A stretch of DNA of 32,000 nt, taken from assembly GCF_003231495.1 (NCBI RefSeq), contig NZ_PQWO01000018.1, forward strand, positions 61,285 to 93,284. The letters run 5' to 3'. Both the position numbers and the translations under genes were made by a program. This document shows positions 5,496 to 31,787 of the stretch, one piece after another. The DNA is from Acaryochloris thomasi RCC1774 (lineage in GTDB: Bacteria; Cyanobacteriota; Cyanobacteriia; Thermosynechococcales; Thermosynechococcaceae). The notes under the pieces are model-generated. The model made no database searches. It worked only from the letters and a program-made list of their open reading frames with translations, and had not been told where the DNA came from. Positions within the stretch are counted from its first letter, which is position 1. Each line of letters opens with the position of its first letter.

Positions 5496-5596
5496 TTGGG
5501 CAGCAACGCTTTACGCTATAACAAGTTTAATCGTTTCCAATCTTCGCGTTCTATCTCGCCGGTTGGGTTCTCCGTACTGATTCTGTTTGATATACC

Positions 5597-6738: not shown

Positions 6739-6740
6739 AG

Positions 6741-7646: not shown

Positions 7647-7818
7647 ATTTTCTGCGGAGAGTTCTCTTCCCTACGCCTCTAAAAACCTAACTGCCTCCAT
7701 CGATCAGGCGGAGCACAGATCTTTCTGATTGGCACTGGAATCATGTTGTTTGAGCGCGAACTCCGTTATCATATGCCTTGCGGCTTTCGTAACGTTCGAT
7801 TTTAAGGCACACAGCAGC

Positions 7819-10692: not shown

Positions 10693-11262
10693 TTAACTCG
10701 TCCACTTCGATAGAGTAGGAGCCTTGAACTGAGTAAGCTTGTCGATAAGTTTATCGGCTTCTGTTTCTGTTAGAACGATATGTCTGTGCTCAGGGCGGAT
10801 AAACTGTTCATCTGTTGCATGATCGAGAAACGAAAGCAGCCCATCGTAGAAGCCATCAATGTTCAGTAGTCCGCAAGCTTTGTCTTGGAAGCCAAGCTGC
10901 GCCCATGTCGCAATTTCACAGAATTCTTCTAAAGTCCCTAATCCGCCAGGAAGGGCAATGAATGCGTCTGCAAGCTCAGCCATCAGGGACTTACGCTCGT
11001 GCATAGAGTCAACTATTCGTAGATCACTGAGTCCTTCGTGTGCAACTTCTTTCTGTGCTAGTGCTTTTGGGATGACACCGATTACAGTTCCACCCGCGCC
11101 GAGAACGGAATCAGCGATTGCTCCCATCAAGCCAACGTTACCGCCCCCGTAGATAAGCTTGATTTGACGCTTTGACATCTCTTCTCCGAGTCGTTTCGCA
11201 GCGCTTAGATAGCTATCGCGTGCTCCGAAATTAGAGCCGCAGTAGACGCAGATACTTTTCAT
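10693..11262 (-). CDS. LOG-family protein (TIGR00730; cytokinin riboside 5'-monophosphate phosphoribohydrolase-like)
   Basis: Diagnostic motifs YGGGNVGLMG and PGGLGTLEEF. About 190 aa. Begins MKSICVYCGS, typical of the family. Confidence 0.85.
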   Translation of the reverse strand: MKSICVYCGSNFGARDSYLSAAKRLGEEMSKRQIKLIYGGGNVGLMGAIADSVLGAGGTVIGVIPKALAQKEVAHEGLSDLRIVDSMHERKSLMAELADAFIALPGGLGTLEEFCEIATWAQLGFQDKACGLLNIDGFYDGLLSFLDHATDEQFIRPEHRHIVLTETEADKLIDKLTQFKAPTLSKWTS

Positions 11263-11389
11263 GTAAATTGTGCTTGTGTATGACTAAAATCAGTCTATCA
11301 GTCGCTTTTGGTGGCAAATGACACAATTCTCGATTCTCTTTTGGGATATAGCAAAGCTGTCGTACATTGCTGCCCCACAGGGCTATCAG

Positions 11390-12280
11390 CTACTGCAGCC
11401 ACAGTAGTAGAGCAACGCCGGTAACGGCAGTGGCGGCTCCCAGCCATGCTCTGATGCTGACACGTTCGCCCAGCCAAATGGCAATGGGCAAGACGAATAG
11501 AGGACTGGTGGCCGTTAAGGTTTGGGCAATGCCCGCTTCGGCATACTTGAGGCTAATCTGCTGCAGCCAAATGCCTAAGTAGGTGCCGCCGAAAGCTGCG
11601 AGACAGAGCTGGCGGAGTAGATGTTGCGATCGCAACTCCAGCACCCAACTCCTCAGCTTCCCTTGCCCTAGCCCCCACAACACCAATACAAAAACGCCAC
11701 TGCAAAGGCGCAAGAAGGCTCCCCAGGTCGGACTCAGAGGCGTATCGACTAACGCAGCCCGAGACAAAACCGCACCACTAGCCTGAGCCATTGATGCTAG
11801 TAGCGCGTAGACAATTCCCCAGCGTCGATCGCGCCCCTGCTCTTGAAGCTGTGAAGACCGTTCACTAATCACCCAAGTCACTCCGGCAATAGTGAGGCTC
11901 ATGCCCAGCCAAGCCCAGCTAGAGAGTTCTTCGTTCAGGAATAACAATGCTAGAACGGCTGCTAAGGGAGGCGCTAAAGCTTCAAATAACAGCGTTCGTC
12001 TGGCACCCAAGGCCCGCAGTGCGGCTAGATAAACAGAGTCCCCAAAGCCAATGCCAATAGCACCGCTGAGAAGGAGCAGCAAAAGGCTATGACTCGGAAG
12101 ATCGGGAGCCAGCCCTCCCTGGAAAATGAGGGTTAGCGTTAGAAGTGCGATCGCAACTATCCCTTTTCCCAAATTTATCGCTAGGGGTGAAGCCTGAATA
12201 CGGGCGTAAACAACAGAAGCTAACGCCCATAGAAATGCCGCACTCAACGCCGCTAGCTCCCCAGTCAGATGGGTCTGCAT
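11390..12280 (-). CDS. EamA/DMT-superfamily transporter (10 TM helices, two EamA repeats)
   Basis: ORF 11390..12283. TTG at 12283, ATG at 12280. The protein is uniformly hydrophobic with the two-repeat organisation and Gly/Ala-rich helices typical of EamA. Confidence 0.8.
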   Translation of the reverse strand: MQTHLTGELAALSAAFLWALASVVYARIQASPLAINLGKGIVAIALLTLTLIFQGGLAPDLPSHSLLLLLLSGAIGIGFGDSVYLAALRALGARRTLLFEALAPPLAAVLALLFLNEELSSWAWLGMSLTIAGVTWVISERSSQLQEQGRDRRWGIVYALLASMAQASGAVLSRAALVDTPLSPTWGAFLRLCSGVFVLVLWGLGQGKLRSWVLELRSQHLLRQLCLAAFGGTYLGIWLQQISLKYAEAGIAQTLTATSPLFVLPIAIWLGERVSIRAWLGAATAVTGVALLLWLQ

Positions 12281-12407
12281 CAAATGGCTCTGTTTGCACT
12301 CCAGAAGTTCTGAAACCTGGGTTCTGCCTTCACTTTGAACTTCACAAATTGGTGGTCCTGAAAAATATTATGGAAGGAAGAAGCGGCAGGCCTTTCAAGC
12401 GGCCATC

Positions 12408-19393: not shown

Positions 19394-19786
19394 TTACTGG
19401 GGAAGGGCCGATTGAATTGCTTGAATTAAGTCCTGCTCTTGCCAAGGCTTTGCTAGGCAGGTATGGAGGTTCGCTTGATCATGAGCTCGCTCAACCGCGT
19501 CGTGATCAGCTTGCCCTGTCAACATAATTTTAACCACGCCGGGGAAACGCTGATGGACGTCAATCAGGAGTTCGTCGCCTTTGGCTCCCGGCATTAGCCA
19601 ATCAGACACGATCACTAATAGATCTGTCCCTTCGCCCTGGAGTTCTTCGATAATTTCTAGGGCTTCGCTGGCATTCTCTGCCGTTTCGTAGAGATAGGTA
19701 TCATCGAAGGCTGTCTGGAGCTGTCGCAGTAGGCTATTGAGGATGATCGCTTCGTCATCAACGCAAAGAATCGCTAGTTTAGACAT
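19394..19786 (-). CDS. single-domain (CheY-like) response regulator
   Basis: 130 aa. LCVDDE, VIVSDWLMPGAKGDE (D62), MLTGQAD, AKPWQ. Clearly paralogous to the REC domain of the next gene. Its ATG (19786-19784) overlaps the upstream stop in an 8-nt overlap (ATGTCTAA). Confidence 0.9.
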   Translation of the reverse strand: MSKLAILCVDDEAIILNSLLRQLQTAFDDTYLYETAENASEALEIIEELQGEGTDLLVIVSDWLMPGAKGDELLIDVHQRFPGVVKIMLTGQADHDAVERAHDQANLHTCLAKPWQEQDLIQAIQSALPQ

Positions 19787-22700
19787 GATGGTTTCCGGGT
19801 TGAGGATTCATGGGTAAAGACACGATGAAGGTCGTCTGCGAGGGTATCGATTCAAAGGTGATGGTGCCTTGATGCTTATCGATGATCTTTTTGACAATAT
19901 CGAGTCCCAGTCCGCTGCCTTCGCCAGGGGGCTTGGTTGTAAAGAAAGGCTCAAAAATGTTCGCTTGGACCTCTGGAGGGATGCCACTACCGCTGTCGGT
20001 GATTTTTACCTGTGCGCTGCCGCCGAGTTCCTGCAGGCTGACCTCCAATGTGCCTTTGTAGTCCATGGCCTGTAGGGCATTGTGAATCAGATTCGTCCAC
20101 ACTTGGTTGAGTTCATCGGCATAGCACTTTACGGGAGGGATGGCATCGAGGCTACGAATTACTGTGACGCCGTGCTTGATTTGGTTCTGGTAAAGGGTGA
20201 GGACGGCTTCAATGCCATCTGTAAGGTTGACCGTCATCATTTCGCCGCTGTGGTCGTAGCGGGCGTAGGTTTTGAGGGCAAACACGATCTTGGCGGCGCG
20301 ATCGCTAGCGCTGTTGATGTCTCGGGCGCTCTCTTGCACCCGCGTAAATTGACGCGCCATTTTTAGAAGCGGTTCGCTACTCGGATTTGTCAGCAAGGGC
20401 AGTAGGGCATCGAGATCGCTGTAGATGTTCAGGTCAATAAGCAAGCTAGCCAGATCGCTGGCGTTTGCAATTTCATGGTGGCCCAGTTGCTTGGCTAGGT
20501 TTTTGCGTGCTTGACGACGCTCCCGCCCTGAGAGCTTGGTGGTTGACTGGAGCGATCGCTGGAGCAGGCTTTGAAACTGCTGCTCTTGTTCTGGGGAGAG
20601 GGTTCGAAAGAAGTGGGGGAGCGTTTGTAGGTTGTTGTGCAAGAAGTTATTGATGTACTGAATAGAGGAGCCAATGGCACCCAGGGGCGTATTAATCTCG
20701 TGGGCGATACCGGCAATAAGCTGTCCCAGAGCGGCCATCTTTTCGGACTGAACCAGTTCTTGTTGAGTGAGCTGTAGTTCTTTGACGGTTTGAGAAAGGG
20801 TTTGGGTACGCTCATCGACTTTTTGCTCTAGGTTGGCGTAGAGACGAGCGTTGTCAATTGCGATCGCAACCTGTCCCGACAGCAGCTGCAGTAGTTCTAA
20901 TCGATCGGGGGTAAAAGCACTGGTGGTTAAATTATTTTCCAGATAGACCATCCCACTGAGCTGTCCCAGGTTGAGGAGTGGCATACACAAAATTGACTGG
21001 GTCTGTCGCTCTTTGATGTAGGGATCTTGAGTGAAATCACCGGCTTGACTGGCATGGGATAAAACCACGCTCTCCTGCGTGCGGTTGACGTAGTTCAATA
21101 GCGTCTGAGGAACTTGCCCCACTATCGGTGTGGACTGGAGGACGCTATAGGTCTCAGACTCGGTGTTGGCAGAGGCCTCAATCAGGAGACCGTCGCTGTT
21201 AAGAATGAGATAGCCAACCTGGGCACCGGCATTGCGCACCAGGATTTGAATGAGAGTCATCAACAATTTGTCGAGGACAATCTCCGTTGAGATGGCCTGA
21301 GATGCCTGCAGAACAGTGGCTAAATCTAGCGATTGGCTGGTACGAACGGTGTGAGTTGCTGTGGAAGAAGAAGAAGGTCCCGATGCCGTTGTGAAGACTG
21401 CCTTAGAAAGGTTAGGGTACTGCTGTTCTAGCTGCTCGACCTTTGCGGTTGCCCCCCACCGGAAGTAGCCATAGTAGGCATCTTTCAAATAGACCTGGGC
21501 AATCTTGTCTCGATTTTGCCGCTGGTAGAACTGAGCTGCAAGTTCATTCGCAAGCGCTTCTTCTTGAGGGTAGTCGTGGGCTTGGGCCGATGTGATCGCA
21601 TGATCATAGGCCACCCCTGCCTCTGCTATTTGTCCTAAACAGCGATAGCGTTCTGCTTCGACTAGCTCATATTTATGCCGGTGGTTCTCTGGGGCATGTT
21701 CAGCCCACTGCTGCAGCTGTTGCTGGTTGGCATTGACCTGCTCTAGTGCCTGCTGCTGCTCCGATTCATAAAGGTGCTCAAAACGGGCCAGCCGAGTTAA
21801 AGAGTCATAGAAGTTCAGCACGGCAATGGTGTAGGCGGCGGTCATTCCATCGGCGTTGTTTTCTGCCAACTGTGTACAGCTTAAAGCGGTTTCGTAGTCC
21901 GCCAGTAAATAGCAGAGCATTGCTTTATGCGTGTAGAAGAAGGCCAGAGCCAGTTTGTTGTCGGCACTCTCCACCGTGACCTCGGCTTCCTGGAGAAATT
22001 CTCCGTTGAGTTTGCTTAGGTCAGAGGCTTGGCCTCTGAGGTTTGCGAGGGTCTGCTGATAAATCTTCAGGTATAGATGGCAGGCGGCTTGCTTTAGGGT
22101 TGCGATCGCAAAATTATAGGCAGCCATCCGAGTCGCTAACGCTTCTAGTTCTCGACCCGTGAGTAGACTGTGCATGGACTCCCAGCAGAGCGAGTAGCAG
22201 GCATATTCCACATCGCCTGTGTCCAAGCCGATTTGATAGCCGCTGTGAAGATCGGCAATCGTAGCGCTGAGCGGATCCTCCCAGTGACGCACAAACGCAT
22301 TGAAGACAAACATTACCCGACTTTTCGCCTGCTTGGCCTCGAACTTATCCACCACCTGCAGCGCCAAGCGCCCAAACTGGTAGCCCGAAGCAATATCGCC
22401 CACCGCCCCGCACAGCGTGATGCCGTAGCAGTCATAGGCAAAAGCCGAAGCTGCTGTATTGCCATACTCTAACGAGAGTCGAATTTGGGTGAGGTTGCTG
22501 AGAATAAACCGTTCAAAAGCGGCCTGATAGCCAGAAGATAAAATGTCCGATAAAATCTGCATTGCCGCCAGCTTTTCAGGATCCGTCATCGCAGGCAAAT
22601 CAATCAAACCTTCGATGGAGCGCTGATGCTGTAGAGCCTGAGTTCGCTGTAGCTCAAGCTGTAAATTTTCTGGCGTCGGTTCCGGGAACTGAATGCCTAG

Positions 22701-25250
22701 CTGCCCTAAAATTTCAAAACCAATATCGGTTGCTTCAAAATGTCGATTCTGAGACGAACAGGCCAGAATCTTCACCCGATAGACTTTGACTTTATCTAGA
22801 ACACAGCGGGCCTTCTGCAGAATGATTGCCGTTAGCTGCTCTTGCTTTTCGTAGTCCTGATTCAGATAGGCCGCCTCACTGGCCGCCTCATAAAGCCCCA
22901 GGGCTAATTCATAGGTGTTTTGCCAGCCATCCGGTCCTAAAAGCGTCACCCCTGTTAGTAGATAGTTCATCGCAGCTTGGTAAGCGGTTGCCGACTTCGC
23001 CTTCTGACCCGCCTGAAAATTGAGCTGCGCTAACTGCTGTCGTTCAGCCGGTTCAGAGATCAGATCGAGTGCTTGATTGAGATGATCCACGACCTCAAAG
23101 ATGCGGTCTGCCAGACCTTCTTGGGTCACGCCGTCTCTGAGCAGACGACCAATACGGAGATGAACCGGTGCTTTTTGTTCTGGGGTAATCAGGGCATAGG
23201 CAGCCTGCTGGATGCGGTCATGGCCGAAGCGAAAGCGTTCAATTGTTAAATCTGCTGTCAATTCAGACAGGGGAATCACTAAACCACACTGAATCGTCGG
23301 CTTGAGATCAGCAAAAACGGTTTTGAAAGACTTCTGTTGAATAATGGCAAGGGTCGCCAGATCAAACTGAGCGCCGACGCAGGCCGCCAGCCGCAGTCCT
23401 TCTTGGGTGGCGCTTGACAGCTTCTGGAGTTTGCCAATCAGCAGCTCAATGACGTTATCGGTCAAATCTTGGGCCTGAATCTGCTCCATGTCCCATTCCC
23501 AGAGGCGGGATGCTTCATTAAACTGCAGCAGTCTTTCACTGTGGAGACTCTTGAGAAATTCGTTGACGAAAAAGGGATTGCCTTCTGTTTTCTGAAGCAC
23601 TAATTCCGCGAGGGGATCTAGTTCAGCCTGACTGTGCTGCAGTGTATCCGTGATTAGCTGACTGAGGTGCGTCAGCGATAGGGGGGCCAGGGTAATCGTA
23701 TTGACTGTCACACTCTGGGTCTCAAAGTGGTTTAACAGGCTCATTAATGGATGCGCCGCACTGACTTCATTGTCACGGTAGGCACCGATCACAAGCAGCG
23801 ATCGCATCTTACTATCGGTCATCATTCGCTGCATCAGCTTCAGGCTGGCAGAATCAGCCCACTGCAAATCGTCTAGGAACAGCACTAGCGGATGCTCGGG
23901 ATCACAGAAAACCCGAATGAAACTTTGAAAAACCAGATTGAAGCGGTTTTGAGCCTCTGTTGGACCCAGCTCTGGTACCGGGGGCTGCTTTCCTGTAATC
24001 AGAGCTATTTCAGGGATCACATCAATGACCACCTGACCGTTTGGTCCCAAAGCTGCTAGCAAGCGCTGCCGCCACTGGGCTAGCTGGGTCTCGCTTTCCG
24101 TTAAAAGCTGTTTGGCAAGGCTGCGAAAGGCAGCAATCACTGCGGAGTAGGGCACATCCCGCTGAAACTGGTCATATTTACCGGCGATGAAGTAGCCGCG
24201 CTTCTCGGTAATGGGCTTATGGACCTCCGCCACTAGAGAAGACTTGCCAATCCCGGAATACCCTGCCACCAGCATTAATTCGCTGGTGCTGGTGGATTGG
24301 CTGATGCGCTCGAAAGCCGCCAGCAATATTGCTTTCTCGGCCTCTCGCCCATAGAGCTTTTGTGGAATCTGGAAGCGACCGGATAAATCTTGAGTGCCGA
24401 GGACGAAAGGTGCAATCTTACCTGTGCTGCGTAACTGCTCTCGGCAGTTTTCCAAATCAGCCTGGAGGCCCGCCGCGTTCTGATAGCGGTCCTCAGCCGT
24501 TTTAGCCATCAGCTTCAGCGTCAGATTAGACAAGACCTGCGGCACCGCAAGATTAATTTGATGCGGTGGCTTGGGTTGATGGGCAATATGACAGTGAACC
24601 AGTGCCAAAGCATCTTCGGTCGGGAATGGTAACTGCCCCGTCAGCAGCTCATAGAATGTAATGCCGAGAGAATAGAAGTCCGTTCGGTAGTCTAGGGAGC
24701 GATTCATCCGTCCGGTTTGCTCCGGTGACAGATAGGCCAGCGTGCCTTCTAATACCCGTGGGTTTTTGAGGGTGGGGTTCTCACGGCTCAACTGGGTTGA
24801 AATCCCAAAGTCGATGATTTTAAGCTGTCCTGAGGCTGGGTTGACAATGATATTGCTGGGATTAATATCTTTGTGAATGACGTTACGGCTGTGAATATGC
24901 CCCAGGATTTCGACAATCTTGAGAGCTAAATCTAGAAACTCCTCCAGCGGCACTGCCTGCCCTTGGAACCACTCTTTGAGGGATTGCCCTCCAATGTCTT
25001 CGAGCACCATCGCTAAAGTGCGCTGATAGGGTTCTAACCCATAAACCTGAACTGTACCTTCGATGTCAAGATTGCTCGTGATTTCATATTCTTGGCGATA
25101 GCGGGTCAGTTCGGCCGAGGTGGGATAGTCTTCTTTCAAGATTTTGATAATGACAGGCTGATCAGGGTCGCCTCGATGACCCCGATAGACTAATGAATTC
25201 GCGCTCTCATAAATGTGCTTAGTCAAATTACAGCCGACAACACCCGTCAT
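19779..25250 (-). CDS. multidomain Ser/Thr protein kinase, AAA_16/STAND-type P-loop NTPase, helical/TPR-like region, GAF and histidine kinase (HstK-like dual kinase)
   Basis: 1823 aa. STK: VIIK (K36), HKDINPSN (D128, N133), DFG (D147), LAYLSPE. P-loop: Walker A GYSGIGKS (K336, codon 24245-24243) and Walker B LVLFLDD (455-461). Long helical repeat region. GAF-like segment (about 1290-1450). Coiled coil. H-box SEKMAALGQLIAGIAHEINTPLG (His1517, codon 20702-20700). HATPase_c: NLIHNALQAM, DSGSGIP, FEPFFTTKPPGEGSGLGL. Confidence 0.9.
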   Translation of the reverse strand: MTGVVGCNLTKHIYESANSLVYRGHRGDPDQPVIIKILKEDYPTSAELTRYRQEYEITSNLDIEGTVQVYGLEPYQRTLAMVLEDIGGQSLKEWFQGQAVPLEEFLDLALKIVEILGHIHSRNVIHKDINPSNIIVNPASGQLKIIDFGISTQLSRENPTLKNPRVLEGTLAYLSPEQTGRMNRSLDYRTDFYSLGITFYELLTGQLPFPTEDALALVHCHIAHQPKPPHQINLAVPQVLSNLTLKLMAKTAEDRYQNAAGLQADLENCREQLRSTGKIAPFVLGTQDLSGRFQIPQKLYGREAEKAILLAAFERISQSTSTSELMLVAGYSGIGKSSLVAEVHKPITEKRGYFIAGKYDQFQRDVPYSAVIAAFRSLAKQLLTESETQLAQWRQRLLAALGPNGQVVIDVIPEIALITGKQPPVPELGPTEAQNRFNLVFQSFIRVFCDPEHPLVLFLDDLQWADSASLKLMQRMMTDSKMRSLLVIGAYRDNEVSAAHPLMSLLNHFETQSVTVNTITLAPLSLTHLSQLITDTLQHSQAELDPLAELVLQKTEGNPFFVNEFLKSLHSERLLQFNEASRLWEWDMEQIQAQDLTDNVIELLIGKLQKLSSATQEGLRLAACVGAQFDLATLAIIQQKSFKTVFADLKPTIQCGLVIPLSELTADLTIERFRFGHDRIQQAAYALITPEQKAPVHLRIGRLLRDGVTQEGLADRIFEVVDHLNQALDLISEPAERQQLAQLNFQAGQKAKSATAYQAAMNYLLTGVTLLGPDGWQNTYELALGLYEAASEAAYLNQDYEKQEQLTAIILQKARCVLDKVKVYRVKILACSSQNRHFEATDIGFEILGQLGIQFPEPTPENLQLELQRTQALQHQRSIEGLIDLPAMTDPEKLAAMQILSDILSSGYQAAFERFILSNLTQIRLSLEYGNTAASAFAYDCYGITLCGAVGDIASGYQFGRLALQVVDKFEAKQAKSRVMFVFNAFVRHWEDPLSATIADLHSGYQIGLDTGDVEYACYSLCWESMHSLLTGRELEALATRMAAYNFAIATLKQAACHLYLKIYQQTLANLRGQASDLSKLNGEFLQEAEVTVESADNKLALAFFYTHKAMLCYLLADYETALSCTQLAENNADGMTAAYTIAVLNFYDSLTRLARFEHLYESEQQQALEQVNANQQQLQQWAEHAPENHRHKYELVEAERYRCLGQIAEAGVAYDHAITSAQAHDYPQEEALANELAAQFYQRQNRDKIAQVYLKDAYYGYFRWGATAKVEQLEQQYPNLSKAVFTTASGPSSSSTATHTVRTSQSLDLATVLQASQAISTEIVLDKLLMTLIQILVRNAGAQVGYLILNSDGLLIEASANTESETYSVLQSTPIVGQVPQTLLNYVNRTQESVVLSHASQAGDFTQDPYIKERQTQSILCMPLLNLGQLSGMVYLENNLTTSAFTPDRLELLQLLSGQVAIAIDNARLYANLEQKVDERTQTLSQTVKELQLTQQELVQSEKMAALGQLIAGIAHEINTPLGAIGSSIQYINNFLHNNLQTLPHFFRTLSPEQEQQFQSLLQRSLQSTTKLSGRERRQARKNLAKQLGHHEIANASDLASLLIDLNIYSDLDALLPLLTNPSSEPLLKMARQFTRVQESARDINSASDRAAKIVFALKTYARYDHSGEMMTVNLTDGIEAVLTLYQNQIKHGVTVIRSLDAIPPVKCYADELNQVWTNLIHNALQAMDYKGTLEVSLQELGGSAQVKITDSGSGIPPEVQANIFEPFFTTKPPGEGSGLGLDIVKKIIDKHQGTITFESIPSQTTFIVSLPMNPQPGNHHV

Positions 25251-25756: not shown

Positions 25757-27745
25757 ATGCCCTCATCTTTTACAGCCCTGAATACTGAGTCTCTGAATGT
25801 TGTTCAGCCACCTGTGCCGGCTCTAAAGAAAACAGAGGCTCATCCTGAGCCTGTCCCCCACGCTCTCAGGACTGCTCGCAAAAAATATAAGTACAACTAC
25901 GCCCATATTGCGCCAGTCGCGATGGTAGACAAGCTGCCGCGCGAGGAGAGACCCAGTCTGGTCTGGTGGAGAAAGGTGATTCGGGTCATGCTCGAAATCT
26001 TTATCAACGCCATCGTTAGCAAGCGAGGTCATGTTGAAGAAGTACAGGCCCGTCACCATGTCGCCCACCTCGTCAGACAAACGGTGATCGATATCTTTCA
26101 GCAGGCAGATTTCAAAACGAAACTTCGGCTGGGTTGGCATCTGCTCAGAGCAGTTCCCCAACTCCTTTGGAAGGGATTCAGGTTGGGACTGCATGAGTGG
26201 GAAGATCTGGTTCTGAGTCTGATTTCAGAGGTCGAGAAAGATATTCTGCTGGCGCTCCACGGCGGCGTCAAGGCTCGCGTTGATCAAGACCGCCACTGTG
26301 TGACAGCCACGAGTCTGGAGGACTACAACAGGCAGTTTGCCACGATTGCACTACCTGCGATCGCAACTCATTTCCAAGAAGATGAATACTTCGCCTACCT
26401 ACGGATAGCGGGTCCCAATCCTACGATGCTTGAGCAGGTCCGCGTTTTGTTTGGCGACATCCTCAGCCAAAAATTTCCGGTGACAAACGATCACTATCAA
26501 GCCGTCATGGGCACTGATGATTCCCTGGAGAAAGCTTTAGAAGAGAGCCGCCTCTACATTGCGGACTACGCCATTCTGGCAGGAGCTATCAATGGCACCT
26601 ATCCTGGCACCCACCCCAAATATATTGAAGCGCCTCAGGCGCTATTTGCTGTCCCTCGGGGCGGTTCCGCATCACGAAACCTGCGGCCCATTGCGATTCA
26701 GTGTGGTCAGGTTTCGGGTACGAACGTACCAATTGTGACGCCCTCGACGAACGAATCCGAGCGATACGCTTGGGAAATGGCCAAGGCTGTGGTTCAGGTG
26801 GCCGATAGCAACTACCACGAAGCCATTGCCCACTTAGGTCGCACGCATCTGTTTATTGGCCCCTTTGCGATCGCAACCCATCGGCAACTTCTGCCGGAGC
26901 ATCCCCTTAGTGTTCTACTGCGCCCGCACTTTGAGGGCATGCTCAACATCAATGATGGGGCTCAAAATCTGCTTATGGCTCCCCGAGGTGGCGTTGATAA
27001 GAATTTGGCGGCTACGATTGACTGCGCGCGCGCAGCGACTGTCGCTGGCTTGCAGAGCTACGGCTTCAATAGCGCCATGCTGCCCAAACGGCTTGAGCAG
27101 CGCGGTGTTGCCGATCTAGAGGCATTCCCGGTCTATCCTTACCGCGATGATGCCCTTTTACTGTGGGATGCCATCAAAGACTGGGTTGCGGCTTACCTCG
27201 GTCTTCATTACCAAGACGATACCGCAGTCCAGCAGGATCAGGCGCTCCAGAACTGGGCAGCAGAGCTGATTGCCTTTGATGGCGGTCGCGTCGTTGACTT
27301 CGGTGAAGACGGTGAGATTCGGACTCTCTCATACCTGATTGATGCGGTGACGTTAATCGTTTTTACTGCCAGCGCCCAACATGCTGCTGTCAACTTTCCG
27401 CAGGGAGATGTGATGACCTACGCTCCGGCGATGCCTCTGGCAGGATATGCTCCGGCTCATCCGCTCACCACCGCTAGCGAAGCAGATTATTTTGAGCAGC
27501 TTCCGCCGCTGCATCAGGCACAGGGACAGCTTGAGCTGACCTATCTGCTAGGACAGGTCTATCACACGGTACTGGGTCAGTATGACTTGGGCTGGTTTCG
27601 TGACGGGCAAGAGCAGAGCGCCCTCCAAGACTTTCAAGAGAGATTGGTGGAGATTGAAGATGCGATCGCAACCCGTAACCAAACCCGTCCCTATCCCTAC
27701 TGCTATCTGCAGCCTTCCAAAATCCCCCAAAGCATCAATATTTAA
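25757..27745 (+). CDS. lipoxygenase (bacterial type, no PLAT domain; non-haem iron dioxygenase)
   Basis: LOX signatures: YLRIAGPNP; WEMAKAVVQVAD; HEAIAHLGRTH (His354, His359); QHAAVNFPQ (His542, Asn546); C-terminal IPQSINI with a terminal Ile662 carboxylate ligand. 662 aa. The N-terminal ~190 aa look helical rather than beta-barrel. Confidence 0.9.
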   Translation: MPSSFTALNTESLNVVQPPVPALKKTEAHPEPVPHALRTARKKYKYNYAHIAPVAMVDKLPREERPSLVWWRKVIRVMLEIFINAIVSKRGHVEEVQARHHVAHLVRQTVIDIFQQADFKTKLRLGWHLLRAVPQLLWKGFRLGLHEWEDLVLSLISEVEKDILLALHGGVKARVDQDRHCVTATSLEDYNRQFATIALPAIATHFQEDEYFAYLRIAGPNPTMLEQVRVLFGDILSQKFPVTNDHYQAVMGTDDSLEKALEESRLYIADYAILAGAINGTYPGTHPKYIEAPQALFAVPRGGSASRNLRPIAIQCGQVSGTNVPIVTPSTNESERYAWEMAKAVVQVADSNYHEAIAHLGRTHLFIGPFAIATHRQLLPEHPLSVLLRPHFEGMLNINDGAQNLLMAPRGGVDKNLAATIDCARAATVAGLQSYGFNSAMLPKRLEQRGVADLEAFPVYPYRDDALLLWDAIKDWVAAYLGLHYQDDTAVQQDQALQNWAAELIAFDGGRVVDFGEDGEIRTLSYLIDAVTLIVFTASAQHAAVNFPQGDVMTYAPAMPLAGYAPAHPLTTASEADYFEQLPPLHQAQGQLELTYLLGQVYHTVLGQYDLGWFRDGQEQSALQDFQERLVEIEDAIATRNQTRPYPYCYLQPSKIPQSINI

Positions 27746-27782
27746 CCCCTAGTTCCCTACCCACCCCCAGAGGACAATTTTC

Positions 27783-29330
27783 ATGGTCTTGGACCTTTCC
27801 ACCTCCAGTCAAGCCCCCCGGCAATCGCTTCGCGCGCTAATCTGGAACCGTTTTCTGCAACCCCTACTGCAGAGAATATTCAGATGGCTGACCGCTTCTA
27901 AAGCCCAGCCCTTCGAAGATATCCCAGGGCCGACCCCGATCTTTCCGACTGGGAACGTTTTAGACTTTCAAAAAGATCCCACCTGGGAAGTCTTGGGTAA
28001 CTACGCCCAACAATACGGAAACGTCGCTCGCTTCTGGATGCTGTTTCGACCCTGCCTAGCCGTTAACGATCCAAAGCTAATTCACCAAGTTCTTTCAGGG
28101 GTGGGGGAACAGTCACCGGAAGTCGCAGAAAGCCGCTGTCCCCTGCACAATAACCCAATCTACAAGTTCTATAAAAACCAGCCGCGCAAAGCGCTGCGGC
28201 CCATGCTGACCGACACCAATCCCTTTGAAGCTGCAGCTGCAGATGCTCACTGGAAAGATTTGAAGCAGAACCATCCTTTCAGCATGGATTACTTTGATGA
28301 CTGGCTCGGGTCGCAGATCGAACCCCTCCATGCCTTCATAGAAACAAGAGCGACAGAACTGGTCGCAGCCTCTAACCAAGCGGGTGAATTATCGGCCTAT
28401 GACGCCATTCAAAAGCTGACCTTTGACGGATTTTCGTTAGCAACCGTGGGGCAAGTTTTCCCGGACGAAGTTTTTGAGCAGTTTAACTCCATGTGCCAGA
28501 CCGGTACGAGTCGGATGACGCGCTCGACCTTGGCAACATGGCTGATTCCAGAAAAGCCGTGGGATCGTACCTATCGCAAAGTAAGCAAAGCCTGGTTCAA
28601 CCGCTTTGAACAGATCGTCAGCTTAGAAGAAGCGCCAGCCAACTCGCTGCTAGGCTGGGTGCTTCGCAAAGGCGGCACTAATTTTGAGGCCGAAAAGCTG
28701 CGTAATTTTTGTGCCGGTGTCTATCCCGGTGGAGCCGTCTCTACCCCCAGCGGTATTACGTCAGCGCTCCATCTTCTTCATCAGCACCCAGAAACTCTGG
28801 CCGCTCTCAAAGCAGAAGTCAAAGACTTCTTTGCTGGTCCCCTGACGTTAGAGCGACTGGAAGGCTGCACTCAGCTTGATCAGGTGATGCGTGAATCGCT
28901 ACGGCTCTGGCCTGCCGTCCCGTTTTTCCTACGGACGGTTAATCAAGGTGGTGCCGAATTAGCAGGGCACTCCATTCCAGCAGGTACCCCCATTTTTATG
29001 AGTAACTGGTCGCTGCAGCGCCTTAGCGATCATTGGTCAGAGCCAGAGACTTTCAACCCAGCCCGATGGGATGCAGAGACCTGCCGTCAGAACGACTGGG
29101 GAAGTGACTACTTCTTTCCCTTTGGACGGGGCGATCGGGCCTGCATTGGTCAATATTTTGCACGTTATTTTATGAAGCTTGTGTTAGCGGTCTTAGTCTC
29201 AAAGTTTGGAGTGACCTTTGGTGATCAATCCCCTGAGCAAGAGTTCTTCTTCGGCGTCGCGGTTCCGCGCCAGTTGAAGGCACAATTTATTTACTCGAGC
29301 AAAGATTTGCCAAAATATTCTGGGGATTGA
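27783..29330 (+). CDS. cytochrome P450 with canonical Cys haem loop but non-canonical I-helix
   Basis: Pro-rich hinge DIPGPTPIFPTGNVLDF. K-helix ExxR (RESLRL). PERF-like FNPARW. Haem loop FGRGDRACIGQYFA (Cys454, codon 29142-29144). The I-helix position reads GGAVST (28728-28745) instead of (A/G)Gx(D/E)T(T/S). AGAGGA at 27769-27774 sits 8 nt before the ATG. Confidence 0.9.
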   Translation: MVLDLSTSSQAPRQSLRALIWNRFLQPLLQRIFRWLTASKAQPFEDIPGPTPIFPTGNVLDFQKDPTWEVLGNYAQQYGNVARFWMLFRPCLAVNDPKLIHQVLSGVGEQSPEVAESRCPLHNNPIYKFYKNQPRKALRPMLTDTNPFEAAAADAHWKDLKQNHPFSMDYFDDWLGSQIEPLHAFIETRATELVAASNQAGELSAYDAIQKLTFDGFSLATVGQVFPDEVFEQFNSMCQTGTSRMTRSTLATWLIPEKPWDRTYRKVSKAWFNRFEQIVSLEEAPANSLLGWVLRKGGTNFEAEKLRNFCAGVYPGGAVSTPSGITSALHLLHQHPETLAALKAEVKDFFAGPLTLERLEGCTQLDQVMRESLRLWPAVPFFLRTVNQGGAELAGHSIPAGTPIFMSNWSLQRLSDHWSEPETFNPARWDAETCRQNDWGSDYFFPFGRGDRACIGQYFARYFMKLVLAVLVSKFGVTFGDQSPEQEFFFGVAVPRQLKAQFIYSSKDLPKYSGD

Positions 29331-29499: not shown

Positions 29500-30099
29500 A
29501 TGATGGCGATGGCAGCACCGAAAACGAAGACCTACACGGCTGAGGAATATCTAGAGCTGGAGATCACGTCTGAGGTTCGCAGCGAATTCCGGGATGGAGA
29601 GATTGTTGAGATGACGGGTGGCACCCCTGCACACAATGAAATTACACGGATGCTTATTTTCTTGCTGACAATGGCGCTGCGCAAGCAGCCATACAGCATT
29701 TTTGTCACCGATCAGCGTCTCTGGTTGCCGGACTGCAATCTCTATACTTACCCCGATGTGATGGTGATGCCCCGTCCGCCGAAGCTTCAGACTGGGCGAA
29801 AGGATACGGTGATGAATCCGATTTTTATAGCTGAGGTCTTATCAGAATCTACTCAGGGATATGACCGAGGTGATAAGTTCTCAGCCTATCGGACAGTTGC
29901 AACGTTTGAAGAGTATTTGCTAATTGATCAATATCAGCCACGGGTAGAGCATTACGCGCGGCAGGAGGCAAATAAATGGTTACTCACGGTTCATGATAGG
30001 CCGGAGGCTAGGGTGTCTTTGGTGTCTGTGCCGGTGGAGTTAGAGCTTGCTGAGCTATATGAGAACTTGGAGTTTGGTGAGTCGTTGGATAATGCCTGA
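29500..30099 (+). CDS. Uma2-family (DUF820) putative endonuclease
   Basis: Typical family pattern: YTAEEYLELE...SEFRDGEIVEMTGGTPAHNEI ... YPDVMV ... FIAEVLSEST...D...K...Y...G..EY.LID. GGAGGG lies 6 nt upstream of the ATG. Confidence 0.8.
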   Translation: MMAMAAPKTKTYTAEEYLELEITSEVRSEFRDGEIVEMTGGTPAHNEITRMLIFLLTMALRKQPYSIFVTDQRLWLPDCNLYTYPDVMVMPRPPKLQTGRKDTVMNPIFIAEVLSESTQGYDRGDKFSAYRTVATFEEYLLIDQYQPRVEHYARQEANKWLLTVHDRPEARVSLVSVPVELELAELYENLEFGESLDNA

Positions 30100-30140: not shown

Positions 30141-30917
30141 TTAAGAATGAGAGTCACGAACTGGAACCTGATGCTGAGCCAGATGCGTTTTTATTTCGGC
30201 GACGGTCAACTGTCCATAGTGGAGCAGTGAAGCCAGCAGTGCTGCTTCCGCTTTGCCCTCGGTCAACGCTTCACGAATATGATCGCAGGTGCCAGCCCCC
30301 CCCGAGGCCACCACTGGGATCTGCACCTGTTCAGCAATGGCGCGGGTTAGCTCTAAATCGTAGCCTGCCTGAGTTCCATCGGCATCCATACTGGTGACCA
30401 GTAGCTCGCCAGCCCCGCGCTGCTCCATCTCTTTGACCCATGAGATCGCATCTAGTCCCGTATTCTCCCGTCCACCGCGAATGTAGACATCCCAGCCGGG
30501 GTTCTCGGGGTCAGTGCGGCGACGGGCATCAATGGCGATCACAATACATTGGCGACCAAAACGCTCACTGGCTTGGGTGACAAACTCTGGGTTGCGAACC
30601 GCAAAAGAGTTGATGCTAACCTTATCGGCACCGGCCCTTAGTAACTTCCGAATTGTGTCCAGCGAGCCAATTCCACCGCCCACGGTCAGGGGAATAAAGA
30701 CTTCCTCTGCCGTTCGATATACCACGTCATAGATGATGTCCCGATCTTCGTGGGTCGCCGTGATATCTAAAAAGACCAGCTCATCCGCGCCCGCCTCGTT
30801 GTAGACCTTCGCTAGCTCCACTGGATCGCCAGCATCTCGAAGGTTCACAAAATTGACGCCCTTCACCACTCGACCCGCCTTCACATCAAGGCAGGGTAGG
30901 ATTCGCTTCGCCAGCAT
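30141..30917 (-). CDS. hisF: imidazole glycerol phosphate synthase, cyclase subunit
   Basis: [54 protein letters not shown]... and SGGAG motifs. 257 aa. A textbook HisF sequence. Confidence 0.95.
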
Positions 30918-30977: not shown

Positions 30978-31787
30978 TTATTGATTTGTTGTTTGACCGC
31001 TCTCAATAGGTGCTGTTTGTTCCTGGGTTTTGGACTGACTGAACTGCCAGAAACCCGCTGCTAGAATCGCTGCCACGATGCCCGCTCCTAGCACTACTTT
31101 CCAGCGACCTTGAGATGCTTGCGGCTGTGATTTGCTCTTCTTTGCTTGTCCCTGCGACTTCGATGCCTGGGCTTGAGGAACACTACGCTTAGAAAAAATA
31201 GTAGTCGCGTCTTCCTGCTCTGGCTCGATCGGATCTTCTAGCCAGACAGTTGCTTTCGGATCGGTTGTCCCCGCTTTAATGCTTTGGAATTCTGCTGATT
31301 CTAAGTACTGGGATAGCTCGGCTTCTTCTCCAGAAATAATGAGATAGGTACAGAAGGACTCCTTGCCGAACTGAATCGAATCACCTTTCGCTAGCTCATG
31401 GGACTGGCAAGGCTCACCGTTGACAATAGTACCGTTGGTGCTGGTTTTGCCTTGAGAGTTGCCGTCAATGAGGCGATATCGGTAGCGATTCGCTCCGGGT
31501 ACAGGCATGCGAAGCAACAGCGCATGCTGACGAGAAACTGAGGCGTCGTTGAGGACAATTGCACAGCTCCTATCTCGACCAATGGAATAAGTTGCCGCGT
31601 CCAGGGCAAAGACACCACAGTCTTGGTCATCAATAACGAGAATGTGCTGCTCCTGAGTGGGCAGCGCTTTAGGCTCACGGGTTGCTTCTAGCATAGGGCT
31701 GAGGCGCGTTGTTAGGCGTGATGAAGGATGATTGAAAAAAGGCGCACGATCGATTAGATTTTTCCAACCACTTTGTCGTAGGTCCAT
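30978..31787 (-). CDS. FHA-domain protein with Lys/Ser/Gln-rich linker and a C-terminal transmembrane anchor
   Basis: FHA core YSIGRDRSCAIVLNDASVSRQHALL ... STNGTIVNGEP ... L..GD.I.FG. Low-complexity segment QAQASKSQGQAKKSKSQPQASQG. TM helix WKVVLGAGIVAAILAAGFW. The start may instead be the internal ATG at 31694 (MLEATREPK). Confidence 0.8.
   Translation of the reverse strand: MDLRQSGWKNLIDRAPFFNHPSSRLTTRLSPMLEATREPKALPTQEQHILVIDDQDCGVFALDAATYSIGRDRSCAIVLNDASVSRQHALLLRMPVPGANRYRYRLIDGNSQGKTSTNGTIVNGEPCQSHELAKGDSIQFGKESFCTYLIISGEEAELSQYLESAEFQSIKAGTTDPKATVWLEDPIEPEQEDATTIFSKRSVPQAQASKSQGQAKKSKSQPQASQGRWKVVLGAGIVAAILAAGFWQFSQSKTQEQTAPIESGQTTNQ

What the first reader, a model, noticed from the sequence alone, without database searches (positions are those of the whole stretch)
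28728..28745. P450 I-helix acid-alcohol pair replaced (GGAVST) while the Cys loop stays canonical
I aligned by spacing to the Cys ligand. Ser320 is 134 residues before Cys454, compared with Thr268 to Cys400 (132 residues) in P450 BM3. With that alignment the motif (A/G)-G-x-(D/E)-T-(T/S) reads G316-G317-A318-V319-S320-T321. The acidic residue of the proton-relay pair is Val and the conserved Thr is Ser. P450s that do not activate O2, because their substrate brings its own O-O bond, characteristically lose this pair. Examples are CYP74, thromboxane synthase CYP5A and prostacyclin synthase CYP8A. The haem loop FGRGDRACIGQYFA (29121-29150) has normal length, without the CYP74-type insertion. Its CIGQxFA signature resembles fatty-acid-metabolising P450s (CYP4, CYP102). 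Combined with the upstream LOX, this supports a peroxide-rearranging role evolved outside the CYP74 clan.
Basis: partly seen in the sequence, partly recalled or inferred. Interest (0 to 1): 0.65.

Follow-up and report, generated by a model that had tools for sequence, protein, structure and literature searches.

The report
Lipoxygenase-coupled P450 lacking its proton relay
A cyanobacterial cytochrome P450 gene sits 37 bases after a lipoxygenase gene and belongs to a widespread bacterial P450 group, not described in the papers I could search, that has replaced the two residues normally needed to activate oxygen, so it most likely converts the lipoxygenase's fatty-acid hydroperoxide directly, as plant CYP74 enzymes and thromboxane synthase do.

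Summary
Nucleotides 28728-28745 encode G316-G317-A318-V319-S320-T321 of a 515-aa P450 (27783-29330, +). Four gapless sequence and profile alignments to solved P450s place V319 at the acid position and S320 at the conserved Thr position. No D/E-T pair exists elsewhere in the I-helix. The ExxR, PERF-type and Cys-loop motifs are canonical.

This is a clade signature, not a one-off. In 138 relatives the acid position is never D/E and the Thr position is never T (Ser in 118). In the nearest ordinary P450s these positions are 83% D/E and 84% T.

The clade is tied to lipoxygenase. A LOX gene abuts the P450 in 27 of 41 genomes from at least five bacterial lineages. Natural P450-PLAT-LOX, P450-LOX and P450-catalase-type-AOS fusions exist. 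No redox partner was seen nearby.

By sequence and fold it resembles CYP102, CYP3, CYP4 and CYP97, not CYP74.

Best reading (confidence about 0.55): a self-sufficient fatty-acid hydroperoxide isomerase or dehydratase that arose independently of CYP74. The product is unknown and no biochemistry exists.

A giant Ser/Thr-kinase/AAA_16 gene is also a recurrent neighbour, in 20 of 42 loci including this window.

The parts
25757..27745 (+). Lipoxygenase gene (662 aa). It has no PLAT domain and carries a bacterial-type N-terminal helical extension. Inferred iron ligands are H354, H359, H542, N546 and C-terminal I662.
   Evidence: Pfam PF00305 scores 207 bits. It is closest to the bacterial 15-LOX 8x8f, P. 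aeruginosa LOX 4g32 and 5med, with the ligand motifs NYHE..HLGRTHL and SAQHAAVNFPQ and the C-terminal Ile aligned.
27746..27782 (+). A 37-nt LOX-P450 spacer with a GAGGA ribosome-binding site about 10 nt before the ATG. No terminator-like or promoter-like site lies in it, so the two genes probably form an operon.
   Evidence: The sequence was read. The scan found no site between 27746 and 27782.
27783..29330 (+). Cytochrome P450 gene (515 aa), a member of a LOX-linked clade that lacks the acid-alcohol pair.
   Evidence: Pfam PF00067. AF2 model with pLDDT 88.4 and pTM 0.88. Foldseek top hits are P450 BM3, CYP3A4, CYP184A1 and CYP97. Family alignment A1.
27924..27938 (+). PGPTP hinge (P48 G49 P50 P52 invariant) after a long amphipathic N-terminal helix (residues 11-44).
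   Evidence: Invariant columns; helix positions.
28170..28202 (+). YKNQPRKALRP, a conserved basic motif in the B-C region (K131 invariant in A1; P134 and A137 family-specific). I infer it is a candidate carboxylate or substrate contact.
   Evidence: The role is an inference only.
28728..28745 (+). I-helix motif GGAVST in place of (A/G)Gx(D/E)T(T/S). V319 sits at the acid position and S320 at the Thr position.
28893..28904 (+). ExxR motif (E371-S-L-R374), canonical.
   Evidence: Invariant in the family and in the outgroup.
29058..29069 (+). PERF-type motif PARW (P426, R428, W429). Trp in place of Phe is a family signature.
   Evidence: W at 429 in 89% of the family against 9% of the outgroup.
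29121..29162 (+). Haem-binding loop FGRGDRACIGQYFA with ligand C454. It has canonical length and no insertion.
19779..25250 (-). Divergently transcribed 1823-aa signalling protein with domains Pkinase, AAA_16, GAF, HisKA and HATPase_c. This type of gene is a recurrent neighbour of the P450 clade.
   Evidence: Pfam domains. The neighbour class is found in 20 of 42 loci in different arrangements.

Best explanation
The P450 is the second enzyme of a two-gene oxylipin operon.

**Proposed sequence of events**
- The lipoxygenase oxygenates a polyunsaturated fatty acid to a hydroperoxide.
- The P450 binds that hydroperoxide at its ferric haem-thiolate and cleaves the O-O bond without O2, NAD(P)H or a redox partner.
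- With a hydrophobic residue (V319) where the proton-delivering acid normally sits, cleavage is expected to be homolytic. That gives an alkoxyl or epoxyallylic radical plus Fe(IV)-OH.
- The radical then collapses to an allene oxide, hemiacetal/aldehyde, divinyl ether or epoxy-alcohol. Which of these forms is not predictable here.
- The invariant S320 hydroxyl is proposed to hydrogen-bond the peroxide. This is the role played by Asn321 in plant AOS, by Asn287 in prostacyclin synthase, and by the distal Thr of fungal 8R/9R-AOS.

**What is shown and what is inferred**
- Shown: the motif replacement, its clade-wide conservation, an intact haem-thiolate scaffold, LOX adjacency and LOX fusions, and the CYP102/3/4-like ancestry.
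- Inferred: the substrate, independence from O2 and NAD(P)H, homolysis, and the role of S320.
For: **Register and scaffold**
1. V319 is at the acid position and S320 at the Thr position in four independent alignments. No D/E-T pair occurs in helix 303-334.
2. The ExxR, PxRW and FPFGRGxRxCxG motifs are intact in all 42 proteins, so the protein is a working haem-thiolate enzyme and not a decayed gene.

**Clade signature**
3. Among 138 proteins scoring at least 225 bits to the family profile, D/E at 319 occurs 0 times and T at 320 occurs 0 times; S occurs 118 times.
4. The next-best P450 domains (165 bits or less, plus one at 220) are 83% D/E and 84% T.
5. Strict Ser with no Thr argues for a changed role rather than a tolerated substitution.

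**Coupling to LOX**
6. A LOX gene lies within 400 nt of the P450 in 27 of 41 genomes. These span Cyanobacteria, Planctomycetota, Leptospirales, Myxococcota and an alphaproteobacterium, and the gene order varies.
7. LOX and P450 divergence co-vary (Spearman 0.71).
8. Fusion proteins exist: P0114 is P450-PLAT-LOX with I-helix GGALST, and P0158 is P450-LOX. Neither has a reductase domain.
9. The known dioxygenase-haem fusions (coral and cyanobacterial catalase-type AOS-LOX; fungal DOX-CYP) all pass a hydroperoxide to the haem domain (PMC13049297).

**Gene context**
10. In Myxococcus stipitatus the order is LOX, PLAT-LOX, P450, fatty-acid desaturase and GDSL lipase. In Anabaena 4-3 it is a Tle1-like lipase, P450 and LOX.
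11. No ferredoxin-like ORF or classical ferredoxin reductase was seen near any member.

**Precedent**
12. Thromboxane synthase shows that a CYP3-clan P450 with a canonical Cys loop can be a self-sufficient peroxide isomerase after I-helix changes only (PMC13049297).
Against: - No biochemical data exist for any member of the clade.
- From my own knowledge, Ser can substitute for Thr in O2 activation (P450cam T252S is active). Some genuine monooxygenases also lack the acid (CYP2D6 has V308-T309; CYP51 has His-Thr).
- The Cys loop, with F447 and R452, looks exactly like that of redox-partner-dependent P450s.
- 14 of 41 loci have no LOX within 10 kb, for example the Schlesneria loci and L001, L005 and L006.
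- A subclade has Asp or Asn one position earlier (GGD(V/I)S, GGNIS), which could conceivably serve as an alternative acid.
- In locus L048 the P450 domain is fused to a catalase-type AOS-like domain that could itself take the hydroperoxide, which would leave the P450 a different step.
- Six planctomycete loci carry a FAD_binding_3 flavoprotein nearby.
- Absence of adjacent redox partners is common for ordinary bacterial P450s, so it is weak evidence.
Confidence: 0.55

Rival explanations
1. It is an ordinary O2- and NAD(P)H-dependent fatty-acid hydroxylase or epoxygenase, like CYP102, CYP4 or CYP184A1. It would add a further oxygen to the fatty acid or to the LOX product (giving di- or trihydroxy or epoxy-hydroxy oxylipins). 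Electrons would come from unlinked ferredoxin and FNR. Ser320 plus ordered water would replace the usual relay.
For: - The closest structures are fatty-acid-binding monooxygenases: BM3, and CYP184A1 crystallised with oleic acid (7wzm).
- The Cys loop, ExxR and PERF-type motifs are fully canonical.
- From my own knowledge, Ser at the Thr position works in P450cam T252S, and CYP2D6 has Val at the acid position.
- Many bacterial P450s have no linked redox partner.
- A FAD-binding protein is present in six loci.
Against: - The acid is absent in all 138 clade members and Thr is never used, although both dominate in the nearest relatives.
- The P450-LOX fusions carry no reductase domain.
- The nearby FAD protein is of the FAD_binding_3/DAO type, not a ferredoxin reductase.
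- No ferredoxin-like ORF was found near any member.
Confidence: 0.22
2. It acts in the LOX pathway but not on the hydroperoxide O-O bond by rearrangement. One option is isomerisation or cyclisation of an epoxide or allene oxide made by another enzyme. Another is action as a peroxygenase or peroxidase that uses the lipid hydroperoxide as an oxidant or detoxifies it.
For: - In L048 the P450 is fused to a domain homologous to coral catalase-type AOS (1u5u, E 3.5e-19) and is followed by LOX and an OYE/OPR-family reductase. A dedicated hydroperoxide-converting domain is therefore already present there.
- Leptospiraceae loci have an AhpC/thioredoxin-like gene right after LOX.
- LOX-less loci exist.
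Against: - Most loci, including this window, have only LOX and the P450, with no catalase-type domain.
- The P450-LOX fusions lack any third catalytic domain.
- I know of no precedent for a P450 acting as an allene-oxide cyclase.
Confidence: 0.15
3. It is a non-catalytic or degenerate P450, for example a haem-based lipid-peroxide sensor feeding the neighbouring kinase, or a decaying gene.
For: - Frequent adjacency to Pkinase-AAA_16 signalling proteins, sometimes without LOX.
- The catalytic acid is lost.
Against: - Conservation is strong across at least five bacterial lineages. There are 37 invariant columns, including all haem-binding motifs and S320.
- The ORF is intact and the model is confident.
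- I know of no precedent for a P450 acting as a sensor.
Confidence: 0.05

Closest known systems
CYP74 clan (plant, algal and metazoan allene oxide synthase, hydroperoxide lyase, divinyl ether synthase, epoxyalcohol synthase)
   Same: Both are P450s partnered with a lipoxygenase. Both have an I-helix without the acid-alcohol pair. The proposed chemistry is the same: self-sufficient rearrangement of a fatty-acid hydroperoxide.
   Different: - This protein has no CYP74-type insertion in the Cys loop; its FPFGRGDRACIG is canonical.
- It has no distal Asn (AOS Asn321 in FATCFNTWGG, PMC13049297); Ser sits there instead.
- The PERF-type motif is retained.
- Sequence and fold neighbours are CYP102, CYP3, CYP4 and CYP97, with no CYP74 structure in the top 50-60 hits.
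- If the function is shared, it arose by convergence.
Thromboxane synthase CYP5A1 and prostacyclin synthase CYP8A1
   Same: Both are peroxide-isomerising P450s that need no O2 or reductase. Thromboxane synthase, like this protein, belongs with the CYP3-type P450s and keeps a canonical Cys loop, with the change confined to the I-helix.
   Different: - Thromboxane synthase keeps the Glu and replaces the Thr by Ile (AGYEIITNT). Prostacyclin synthase uses Asn287 (PMC13049297). Here the acid is lost and the alcohol is kept as Ser.
- Their substrate is an endoperoxide from a cyclooxygenase, not a LOX hydroperoxide.
- They are animal enzymes; this one is bacterial.
- Identity to solved CYP3A structures is only about 20%.
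Fungal dioxygenase-CYP fusion enzymes (linoleate diol synthases, 8- and 9-AOS, 10R-EAS)
   Same: In both, a dioxygenase is physically coupled to a self-sufficient P450 that converts its hydroperoxide. The distal position can hold a hydroxyl residue (Thr in 8R/9R-AOS) or a non-polar residue. Clade members P0114 and P0158 are analogous fusions.
   Different: - The fungal partner is a haem peroxidase/COX-type dioxygenase, not a non-haem-iron LOX.
- The fungal CYP domains have HxC-type Cys pockets, whereas this one has RxC.
- No specific sequence relationship was found.
Catalase-related AOS-LOX fusions (Plexaura homomalla, Acaryochloris marina, Anabaena PCC 7120)
   Same: Both pair a LOX with a haem enzyme that takes the hydroperoxide, and both occur in cyanobacteria, including Acaryochloris. 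A clade member (P0123) is even fused to a catalase-type AOS homologue.
   Different: The haem partner there has a catalase fold with a Tyr ligand. Here it is a Cys-ligated P450.
CYP102A1 (P450 BM3), CYP184A1 and CYP4 fatty-acid hydroxylases
   Same: These are the best structural and sequence matches (TM 0.70-0.73 normalised to the query). The ACIGQxFA Cys loop has the same pattern. They bind fatty acids.
   Different: They carry (A/E)GH(D/E)TT and need a reductase, either fused or separate. This clade has GGx(hydrophobic)S and no reductase domain, even in its fusion proteins.

Membership tests
Cytochrome P450 superfamily (PF00067) | Profile match above the curated threshold and a P450 fold | tested here: met
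   Pfam scores 163.3 bits against a cut-off of 22.8. The AF2 model has pLDDT 88.4, and Foldseek gives probability 1.00 to many P450 structures.
Cytochrome P450 superfamily (PF00067) | Cys-ligand loop FxxGxRxCxG, ExxR and PERF-type motifs | tested here: met
   F447-G-R-G-D-R-A-C454-I-G, E371-S-L-R374 and P426-A-R-W429.
Canonical O2-activating P450 monooxygenases | I-helix (A/G)Gx(D/E)T acid-alcohol pair | tested here: not met
   The motif is GGAVS, with V319 at the acid position and S320 at the Thr position. No other D/E-T/S pair lies in helix 303-334.
Canonical O2-activating P450 monooxygenases | Dependence on O2, NAD(P)H and a redox partner | not testable with these tools
   The only available evidence is negative context. 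No ferredoxin-like ORF or reductase was found in the neighbourhoods, and the natural fusions carry no reductase domain.
CYP74 clan | Insertion in the Cys-ligand loop compared with ordinary P450s | tested here: not met
   The loop has normal length and aligns without gaps to the BM3 fragment and to CYP97A3 and CYP24A1.
CYP74 clan | I-helix hydroperoxide-binding segment with a catalytic Asn (AOS Asn321) | tested here: not met
   G316-P322 contains no Asn, and the polar residue is Ser. Asn at 318 or 320 occurs only in minor subclades.
CYP74 clan | Closest sequence and fold relatives are CYP74 proteins | tested here: not met
   The top 60 PDB sequence hits and top 50 Foldseek hits are CYP24, CYP97, CYP3A, CYP46, CYP4B1, CYP102 and CYP184A1. 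None is CYP74.
CYP74 clan | Cofactor-free conversion of fatty-acid hydroperoxides | not testable with these tools
   This needs an enzyme assay.
CYP5A1 / CYP8A1 peroxide isomerases | Family-level sequence identity (40% or more by the CYP nomenclature rule) | tested here: inconclusive
   Identity to the solved CYP3-clan relative CYP3A4 is about 20%. CYP5A1 and CYP8A1 themselves were not aligned. Neither appeared among the listed top hits.
LOX-linked GGx(hydrophobic)S P450 clade (defined here) | At least 225 bits to the A1 profile, a hydrophobic residue at the acid position and Ser at the Thr position | tested here: met
   The window protein scores 731 bits and has YPGGAVSTP.
LOX-linked GGx(hydrophobic)S P450 clade (defined here) | A lipoxygenase gene directly adjacent or fused | tested here: met
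   The LOX gene ends 37 nt upstream. The same adjacency holds in 27 of 41 genomes, and there are two LOX fusion architectures.
Lipoxygenase (PF00305), upstream gene | Profile match and iron ligands (three His, one Asn or His, C-terminal Ile) | tested here: met
   Pfam scores 207 bits. H354, H359, H542, N546 and I662 align to the ligand motifs of P. aeruginosa LOX.

The most novel reading that the evidence does not exclude
LOX, this P450 and a giant STAND-type Ser/Thr kinase (Pkinase-AAA_16 with a GAF-histidine-kinase, cyclase or TPR output) form a conserved three-part bacterial oxylipin signalling module.

- In this reading, LOX and the P450 make a specific oxylipin from membrane PUFA. The kinase senses it or controls its production. 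This would be a prokaryotic counterpart of jasmonate or eicosanoid signalling.
- The module is found in Cyanobacteria, Planctomycetota and Leptospirales, lineages that include structurally complex or multicellular members.
- Locus L048 adds a desaturase, a catalase-type AOS domain and an OPR-family reductase, so it resembles an octadecanoid pathway.
Probability: 0.3. Interest if true: 0.85.

Novelty: new variant of a known kind. Interest (0 to 1): 0.66.

Why it matters
- P450s that rearrange lipid peroxides are known from plants (CYP74), animals (thromboxane and prostacyclin synthases) and fungi (DOX-CYP fusions). In bacteria only CYP74-like enzymes from a few Proteobacteria are mentioned in the literature I read (PMC8124189 abstract).
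- If the inference holds, this would be a fourth, independently evolved solution. It is derived from CYP102/3/4-like fatty-acid P450s by swapping the proton relay for a hydrophobic residue followed by Ser.
- The clade is widespread: about 115 clusters at 50% identity among the best 150 profile hits, from several bacterial lineages.
- It would supply the missing 'second enzyme' for many bacterial lipoxygenases, whose physiological products are unknown. The 2026 review of bacterial LOXs names no bacterial enzyme acting downstream of LOX; its P450 mentions are generic.
- It would offer new cofactor-free biocatalysts for aldehydes, allene oxides or epoxy-alcohols.
- With the linked kinases, it gives a testable entry point to oxylipin signalling in bacteria.

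Tried and rejected
1. **Alternative register (T321 as the conserved Thr, S320 at the acid position).** I rejected it because it needs a gap inside a continuous helix, contradicts four gapless HMM alignments, and position 321 is variable in the family.
2. **A relocated acid-alcohol pair.** None occurs in 303-334. The nearest, E337-T338, lies after the helix.
3. **Long hits (1000-1600 aa) in the representative search looked like further fusions.** Most are tandem arrays of canonical CYP4-, CYP3- or CYP6-like domains whose summed scores are inflated. Only P0114, P0158, P0123 and P0129 are real multidomain relatives.
4. **NCBIfam.** No family came near its cut-off for either the P450 or the LOX.
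5. **PADLOC.** There were no hits for the P450 or the LOX, and only generic kinase-domain hits for the kinase, so this is not a known defence system.
6. **Literature.** Seven full-text searches and five papers read found no description of a bacterial LOX-adjacent or LOX-fused P450. The library is incomplete, so earlier work in subscription journals cannot be excluded.
7. **Residue-level inspection of the distal pocket.** This was not possible because model coordinates are not exposed to the scripting tool.
8. **Horizontal transfer.** GC content is uniform (0.47-0.55) across 15-32 kb, with no island signal.
9. **Promoter and terminator scan.** Counts were at the level expected by chance and nothing lay in the LOX-P450 spacer.
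Full report
**What is in the sequence**

The window carries a lipoxygenase gene at 25757-27745 (+, 662 aa; PF00305, 207 bits). After a 37-nt spacer comes a cytochrome P450 gene at 27783-29330 (+, 515 aa; PF00067, 163 bits). The spacer has a GAGGA ribosome-binding site and no promoter-like or terminator-like site, so the two genes probably form an operon.

The haem loop FGRGDRACIGQYFA begins at 29121 as stated but ends at 29162, not 29150. C454 is the ligand.

**Is the register right?**

Yes.
- phmmer against all PDB chains aligns GGAVSTPSGITSALHLLHQHPE without gaps to AGHETTATALAFALHLLARHPE of CYP184A1 (7wzl) and to AGHETS of CYP97A3.
- A profile of 34 family members aligns its consensus ggaiS to AAVET of CYP24A1 and to AGHET of CYP97A3.
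That shift requires a gap inside the I-helix, which the AlphaFold model shows as one continuous helix from 303 to 334 (pLDDT 88.4).
- In the gapless register, P336 to S320 is 16 residues, equal to P284 to T268 in BM3. Position 321 is also variable in the family, whereas 320 is invariant in the 34-sequence alignment.
- No acidic residue followed by Thr or Ser occurs anywhere in residues 303-334.

**Is it more than a chance substitution?**

The protein has few close relatives in public data: 61 proteins at E ≤ 1e-10 in the word-indexed search. The exhaustive profile search shows a sizeable clade.

I re-scored every retrieved domain against the family profile, which gave a clean break.
- All 138 proteins at 225 bits or more lack the pair. 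The main form is G-G-x-(F/I/V/Y)-S. Minor forms are (A/G)G(A/V)HP(V/M)A, AGTRNVA, AGMKN(A/V)A and GGQMGIA.
- One protein at 220 bits and everything at 165 bits or below carry the canonical (A/G)Gx(D/E)(T/S). These are CYP4-like EGHDTT and CYP3/6/9-like AGFETS.
- In numbers, the family has 0 of 138 D/E at position 319, 0 of 138 Thr at position 320, and 118 Ser. The outgroup has 103 of 124 D/E and 104 of 124 Thr.
- S320 and G316 are among only eleven positions that are conserved in the family and different in the outgroup. The others include W429, which turns PERF into PERW.
- ExxR, PxRW and FPFGRGxRxCxG are intact in all 42 genome-derived members.

This is a selected clade signature on an intact haem-thiolate scaffold.

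**Relationship to known P450s**

- By sequence, the nearest solved proteins are CYP24A1, CYP97A3/C1, CYP3A4/5/7, CYP46A1, CYP4B1, CYP184A1 and CYP102.
- By fold, the nearest are P450 BM3, CYP3A4, CYP184A1 (crystallised with oleic acid) and CYP97, with TM 0.67-0.73 normalised to the query.
- No CYP74 or CYP8A structure appears in these lists.
- The Cys loop has normal length, and its ACIGQYFA matches BM3's ACIGQQFA.
- NCBIfam has no model that comes near its cut-off.

**Coupling to lipoxygenase**

A scan of one genome per species found 41 loci with relatives at 26-71% identity. They come from:
- Cyanobacteria: Acaryochloris marina MBIC11017, Anabaena sp. 4-3, Cyanothece BG0011, and Synechococcus and Acaryochloridaceae MAGs.
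- Planctomycetota: Gemmatales, Schlesneria, Zavarzinella and Kuenenia.
- Leptospiraceae.
- Myxococcota: Corallococcus, Myxococcus, Cystobacter and Citreicoccus.
- The alphaproteobacterium Qipengyuania.

A LOX gene lies within 400 nt of the P450 in 27 of the 41 loci, upstream in some lineages and downstream in others. Divergence of the two genes from the window's copies co-varies (Spearman 0.71).

Fusion proteins add independent evidence.
- P0114 (1200 aa) is TM-P450-PLAT-LOX, with I-helix FFGGALSTA.
- P0158 (935 aa) is P450-LOX, and a second LOX gene lies two genes upstream. Neither fusion has a reductase domain.
- A member of the HPV-type subclade (P0100) also follows a LOX gene.

Gene context fits lipid oxidation.
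- In Myxococcus stipitatus the order is LOX, PLAT-LOX, P450, fatty-acid desaturase (overlapping stop and start) and GDSL lipase.
- In Anabaena 4-3 the order is a Tle1-like lipase, P450 and LOX.
- No ferredoxin-like ORF or classical ferredoxin reductase was seen near any member.

**How it most likely works**

Shown:
- An intact haem-thiolate enzyme derived from CYP102/3/4-like ancestors.
- A proton-relay acid replaced by a hydrophobic residue, and a Thr replaced by an invariant Ser.
- Genetic or physical coupling to a hydroperoxide-producing dioxygenase.

Inferred:
- The LOX product binds the ferric haem through its peroxide.
- With no acid to protonate the leaving oxygen, the O-O bond breaks homolytically, as in CYP74, thromboxane synthase and fungal AOS (PMC13049297).
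- The radical intermediate then rearranges to an allene oxide, hemiacetal, divinyl ether or epoxy-alcohol.
- S320 would hydrogen-bond the peroxide. That review shows the distal position can be Asn (plant AOS, PGIS, LDS/EAS), Thr (8R/9R-AOS) or non-polar (TXS, 8S/9S-AOS), so a hydroxyl there is compatible with this chemistry.
- The strict exclusion of Thr suggests a steric requirement close to the iron.
- The invariant K131 (YKxxPRKALRP) and R244 are candidate carboxylate anchors.

I put 0.55 on this mechanism. I cannot predict the product class.

**Rivals**

1. A conventional monooxygenase that adds a further oxygen (confidence 0.22).
   - Supported by the canonical proximal face and the BM3-like fold.
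   - Also supported, from my own knowledge, by the fact that Ser can replace Thr (P450cam T252S) and that CYP2D6 (Val-Thr) and CYP51 (His-Thr) lack the acid.
   - Weakened by the absolute clade-wide loss and by the reductase-free fusions.
2. A different step in the pathway, or peroxygenase or detoxifying chemistry (confidence 0.15).
   - Suggested by P0123. Its family P450 domain is fused through a membrane segment to a domain homologous to coral catalase-type allene oxide synthase (1u5u, E 3.5e-19).
   - That locus also encodes a desaturase, LOX and an OYE/OPR-family reductase.
3. A sensor or a decaying gene (confidence 0.05). Strong conservation makes this unlikely.

Other points against the main explanation:
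- 14 loci lack LOX within 10 kb.
- A subclade has Asp or Asn at position 318.

**An unexpected second association**

I clustered all ORFs within 6 kb of the P450. The next most frequent neighbour after LOX is a giant Pkinase-AAA_16 signalling protein, found in 20 of 42 loci including this window (19779-25250, minus strand; Pkinase-AAA_16-GAF-HisKA-HATPase).

The core is constant while the output domain varies among histidine kinase, adenylate/guanylate cyclase and TPR. The arrangement also varies:
- Kinase-P450-LOX on one strand with gaps of 8 and 38 nt (a Leptospirales MAG, L012).
- LOX-P450-kinase with a 34-nt gap (Gemmataceae, L041).
- Convergent with a 16-nt gap (Schlesneria).
- Kinase-P450 without LOX (Synechococcus MAGs).
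- Divergent (this window, Acaryochloris and L048).

Such kinases are numerous in these phyla, and I could not compute a genome-wide background. The repeated tight linkage in different orders is nevertheless hard to ascribe to chance. It suggests an oxylipin-linked signalling module.

**Novelty and verdict**

I found no description of a LOX-adjacent or LOX-fused bacterial P450 in seven full-text searches. The papers read include a 2026 review of bacterial LOXs and a 2026 review of peroxide-converting CYPs. The library is incomplete, so prior work cannot be excluded.

- The object is best classed as a new variant of a known kind: a peroxide-converting P450 that arose independently of CYP74.
- The function awaits a simple enzyme assay.

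Noticed in passing
window 19779-25250 (-); L012 4612-9993; L041 11462-15910; L016 4802-9301; L005 3920-9664; L048 3621-7697: A giant Pkinase-AAA_16 (STAND-type) signalling protein neighbours the P450 clade in 20 of 42 loci across Cyanobacteria, Planctomycetota and Leptospirales. Its output domain varies (GAF-histidine kinase, cyclase or TPR). Gene order and strand differ between lineages, and gaps are sometimes only 8-34 nt. This suggests a LOX-P450-kinase module.
   Followed up: partly
window 28131-28151 (P450 residues 117-123, SRCPLHN): A 20-40 residue insertion occurs only in the cyanobacterial subclade, in a low-confidence loop (pLDDT below 50 for residues 110-125) between the beta-1 region and the B' region. 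It contains a conserved Cys-Pro-(L/F/V)-His motif, which resembles a haem-regulatory CP motif or a possible extra haem ligand. Its function is unknown.
   Followed up: no
L048 8001-11060 (protein P0123), flanked by 3621-7697(-), 11057-12820 and 12989-14329: A clade P450 is fused through a multi-pass membrane segment to a homologue of coral catalase-type allene oxide synthase (1u5u, E 3.5e-19). The locus also holds FadL, a fatty-acid desaturase, a Pkinase-AAA_16 protein, LOX and an OYE/OPR-family reductase. The gene set looks like an octadecanoid or jasmonate pathway in a bacterial-looking 4.3-Mb metagenomic contig.
   Followed up: partly
L047 98-3700 (P0114); L042 6001-8808 (P0158): These are natural single-ORF fusions, TM-P450-PLAT-LOX (1200 aa) and P450-LOX (935 aa), from metagenomes. 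The organisms are unknown. The PLAT-LOX architecture of P0114 is more typical of eukaryotes.
   Followed up: partly
L045 3778-11501 (Myxococcus stipitatus DSM 14675): A compact lipid-oxidation cluster: LOX (-), PLAT-LOX, P450, a fatty-acid desaturase whose start overlaps the P450 stop, and a GDSL lipase.
   Followed up: no
proteins P0100, P0115, P0124, P0151, P0177 (xHPVA); P0102, P0111, P0153 (AGTRNVA); P0127, P0145 (AGMKNxA); P0094, P0143 (GGQMGIA): These sister subclades have other non-canonical I-helix motifs with neither acid nor alcohol. P0100 also sits next to a (split) LOX gene (L044). This suggests several distinct distal-pocket solutions within one LOX-linked superclade.
   Followed up: partly
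L036 9044-10807; protein P0129 (1239 aa): Relatives of the P450 are fused to cyclic-nucleotide-binding domains. P0129 has lost the Cys ligand in its first domain (loop APFGVGPQSGFGAG). These are possibly regulatory or non-catalytic derivatives.
   Followed up: no
L017 13210-13857, with equivalents in L011, L013 and L023; L023 5142-6689; L017 16544-17848: In Leptospiraceae the P450-LOX pair is followed directly by an AhpC/thioredoxin-like (DUF6436) gene. A methyl-accepting chemotaxis protein and a SpoIIE phosphatase lie nearby, so redox and signalling genes appear here too.
   Followed up: no
L026 10469-11890; L028 6690-8165 (also L020, L021, L027, L040): A FAD_binding_3/DAO-type flavoprotein of about 480 aa recurs between the P450 and the kinase in six planctomycete loci. 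Its role is unknown. It is not a classical ferredoxin reductase.
   Followed up: no
window 29500-30099 (+), 30141-30917 (-), 30978-31787 (-): Downstream genes are a Uma2-family putative endonuclease (Pfam), a gene whose translation looks like HisF (my reading, no family search) and a 269-aa ORF that I did not analyse. None shows an evident link to the operon.
   Followed up: no
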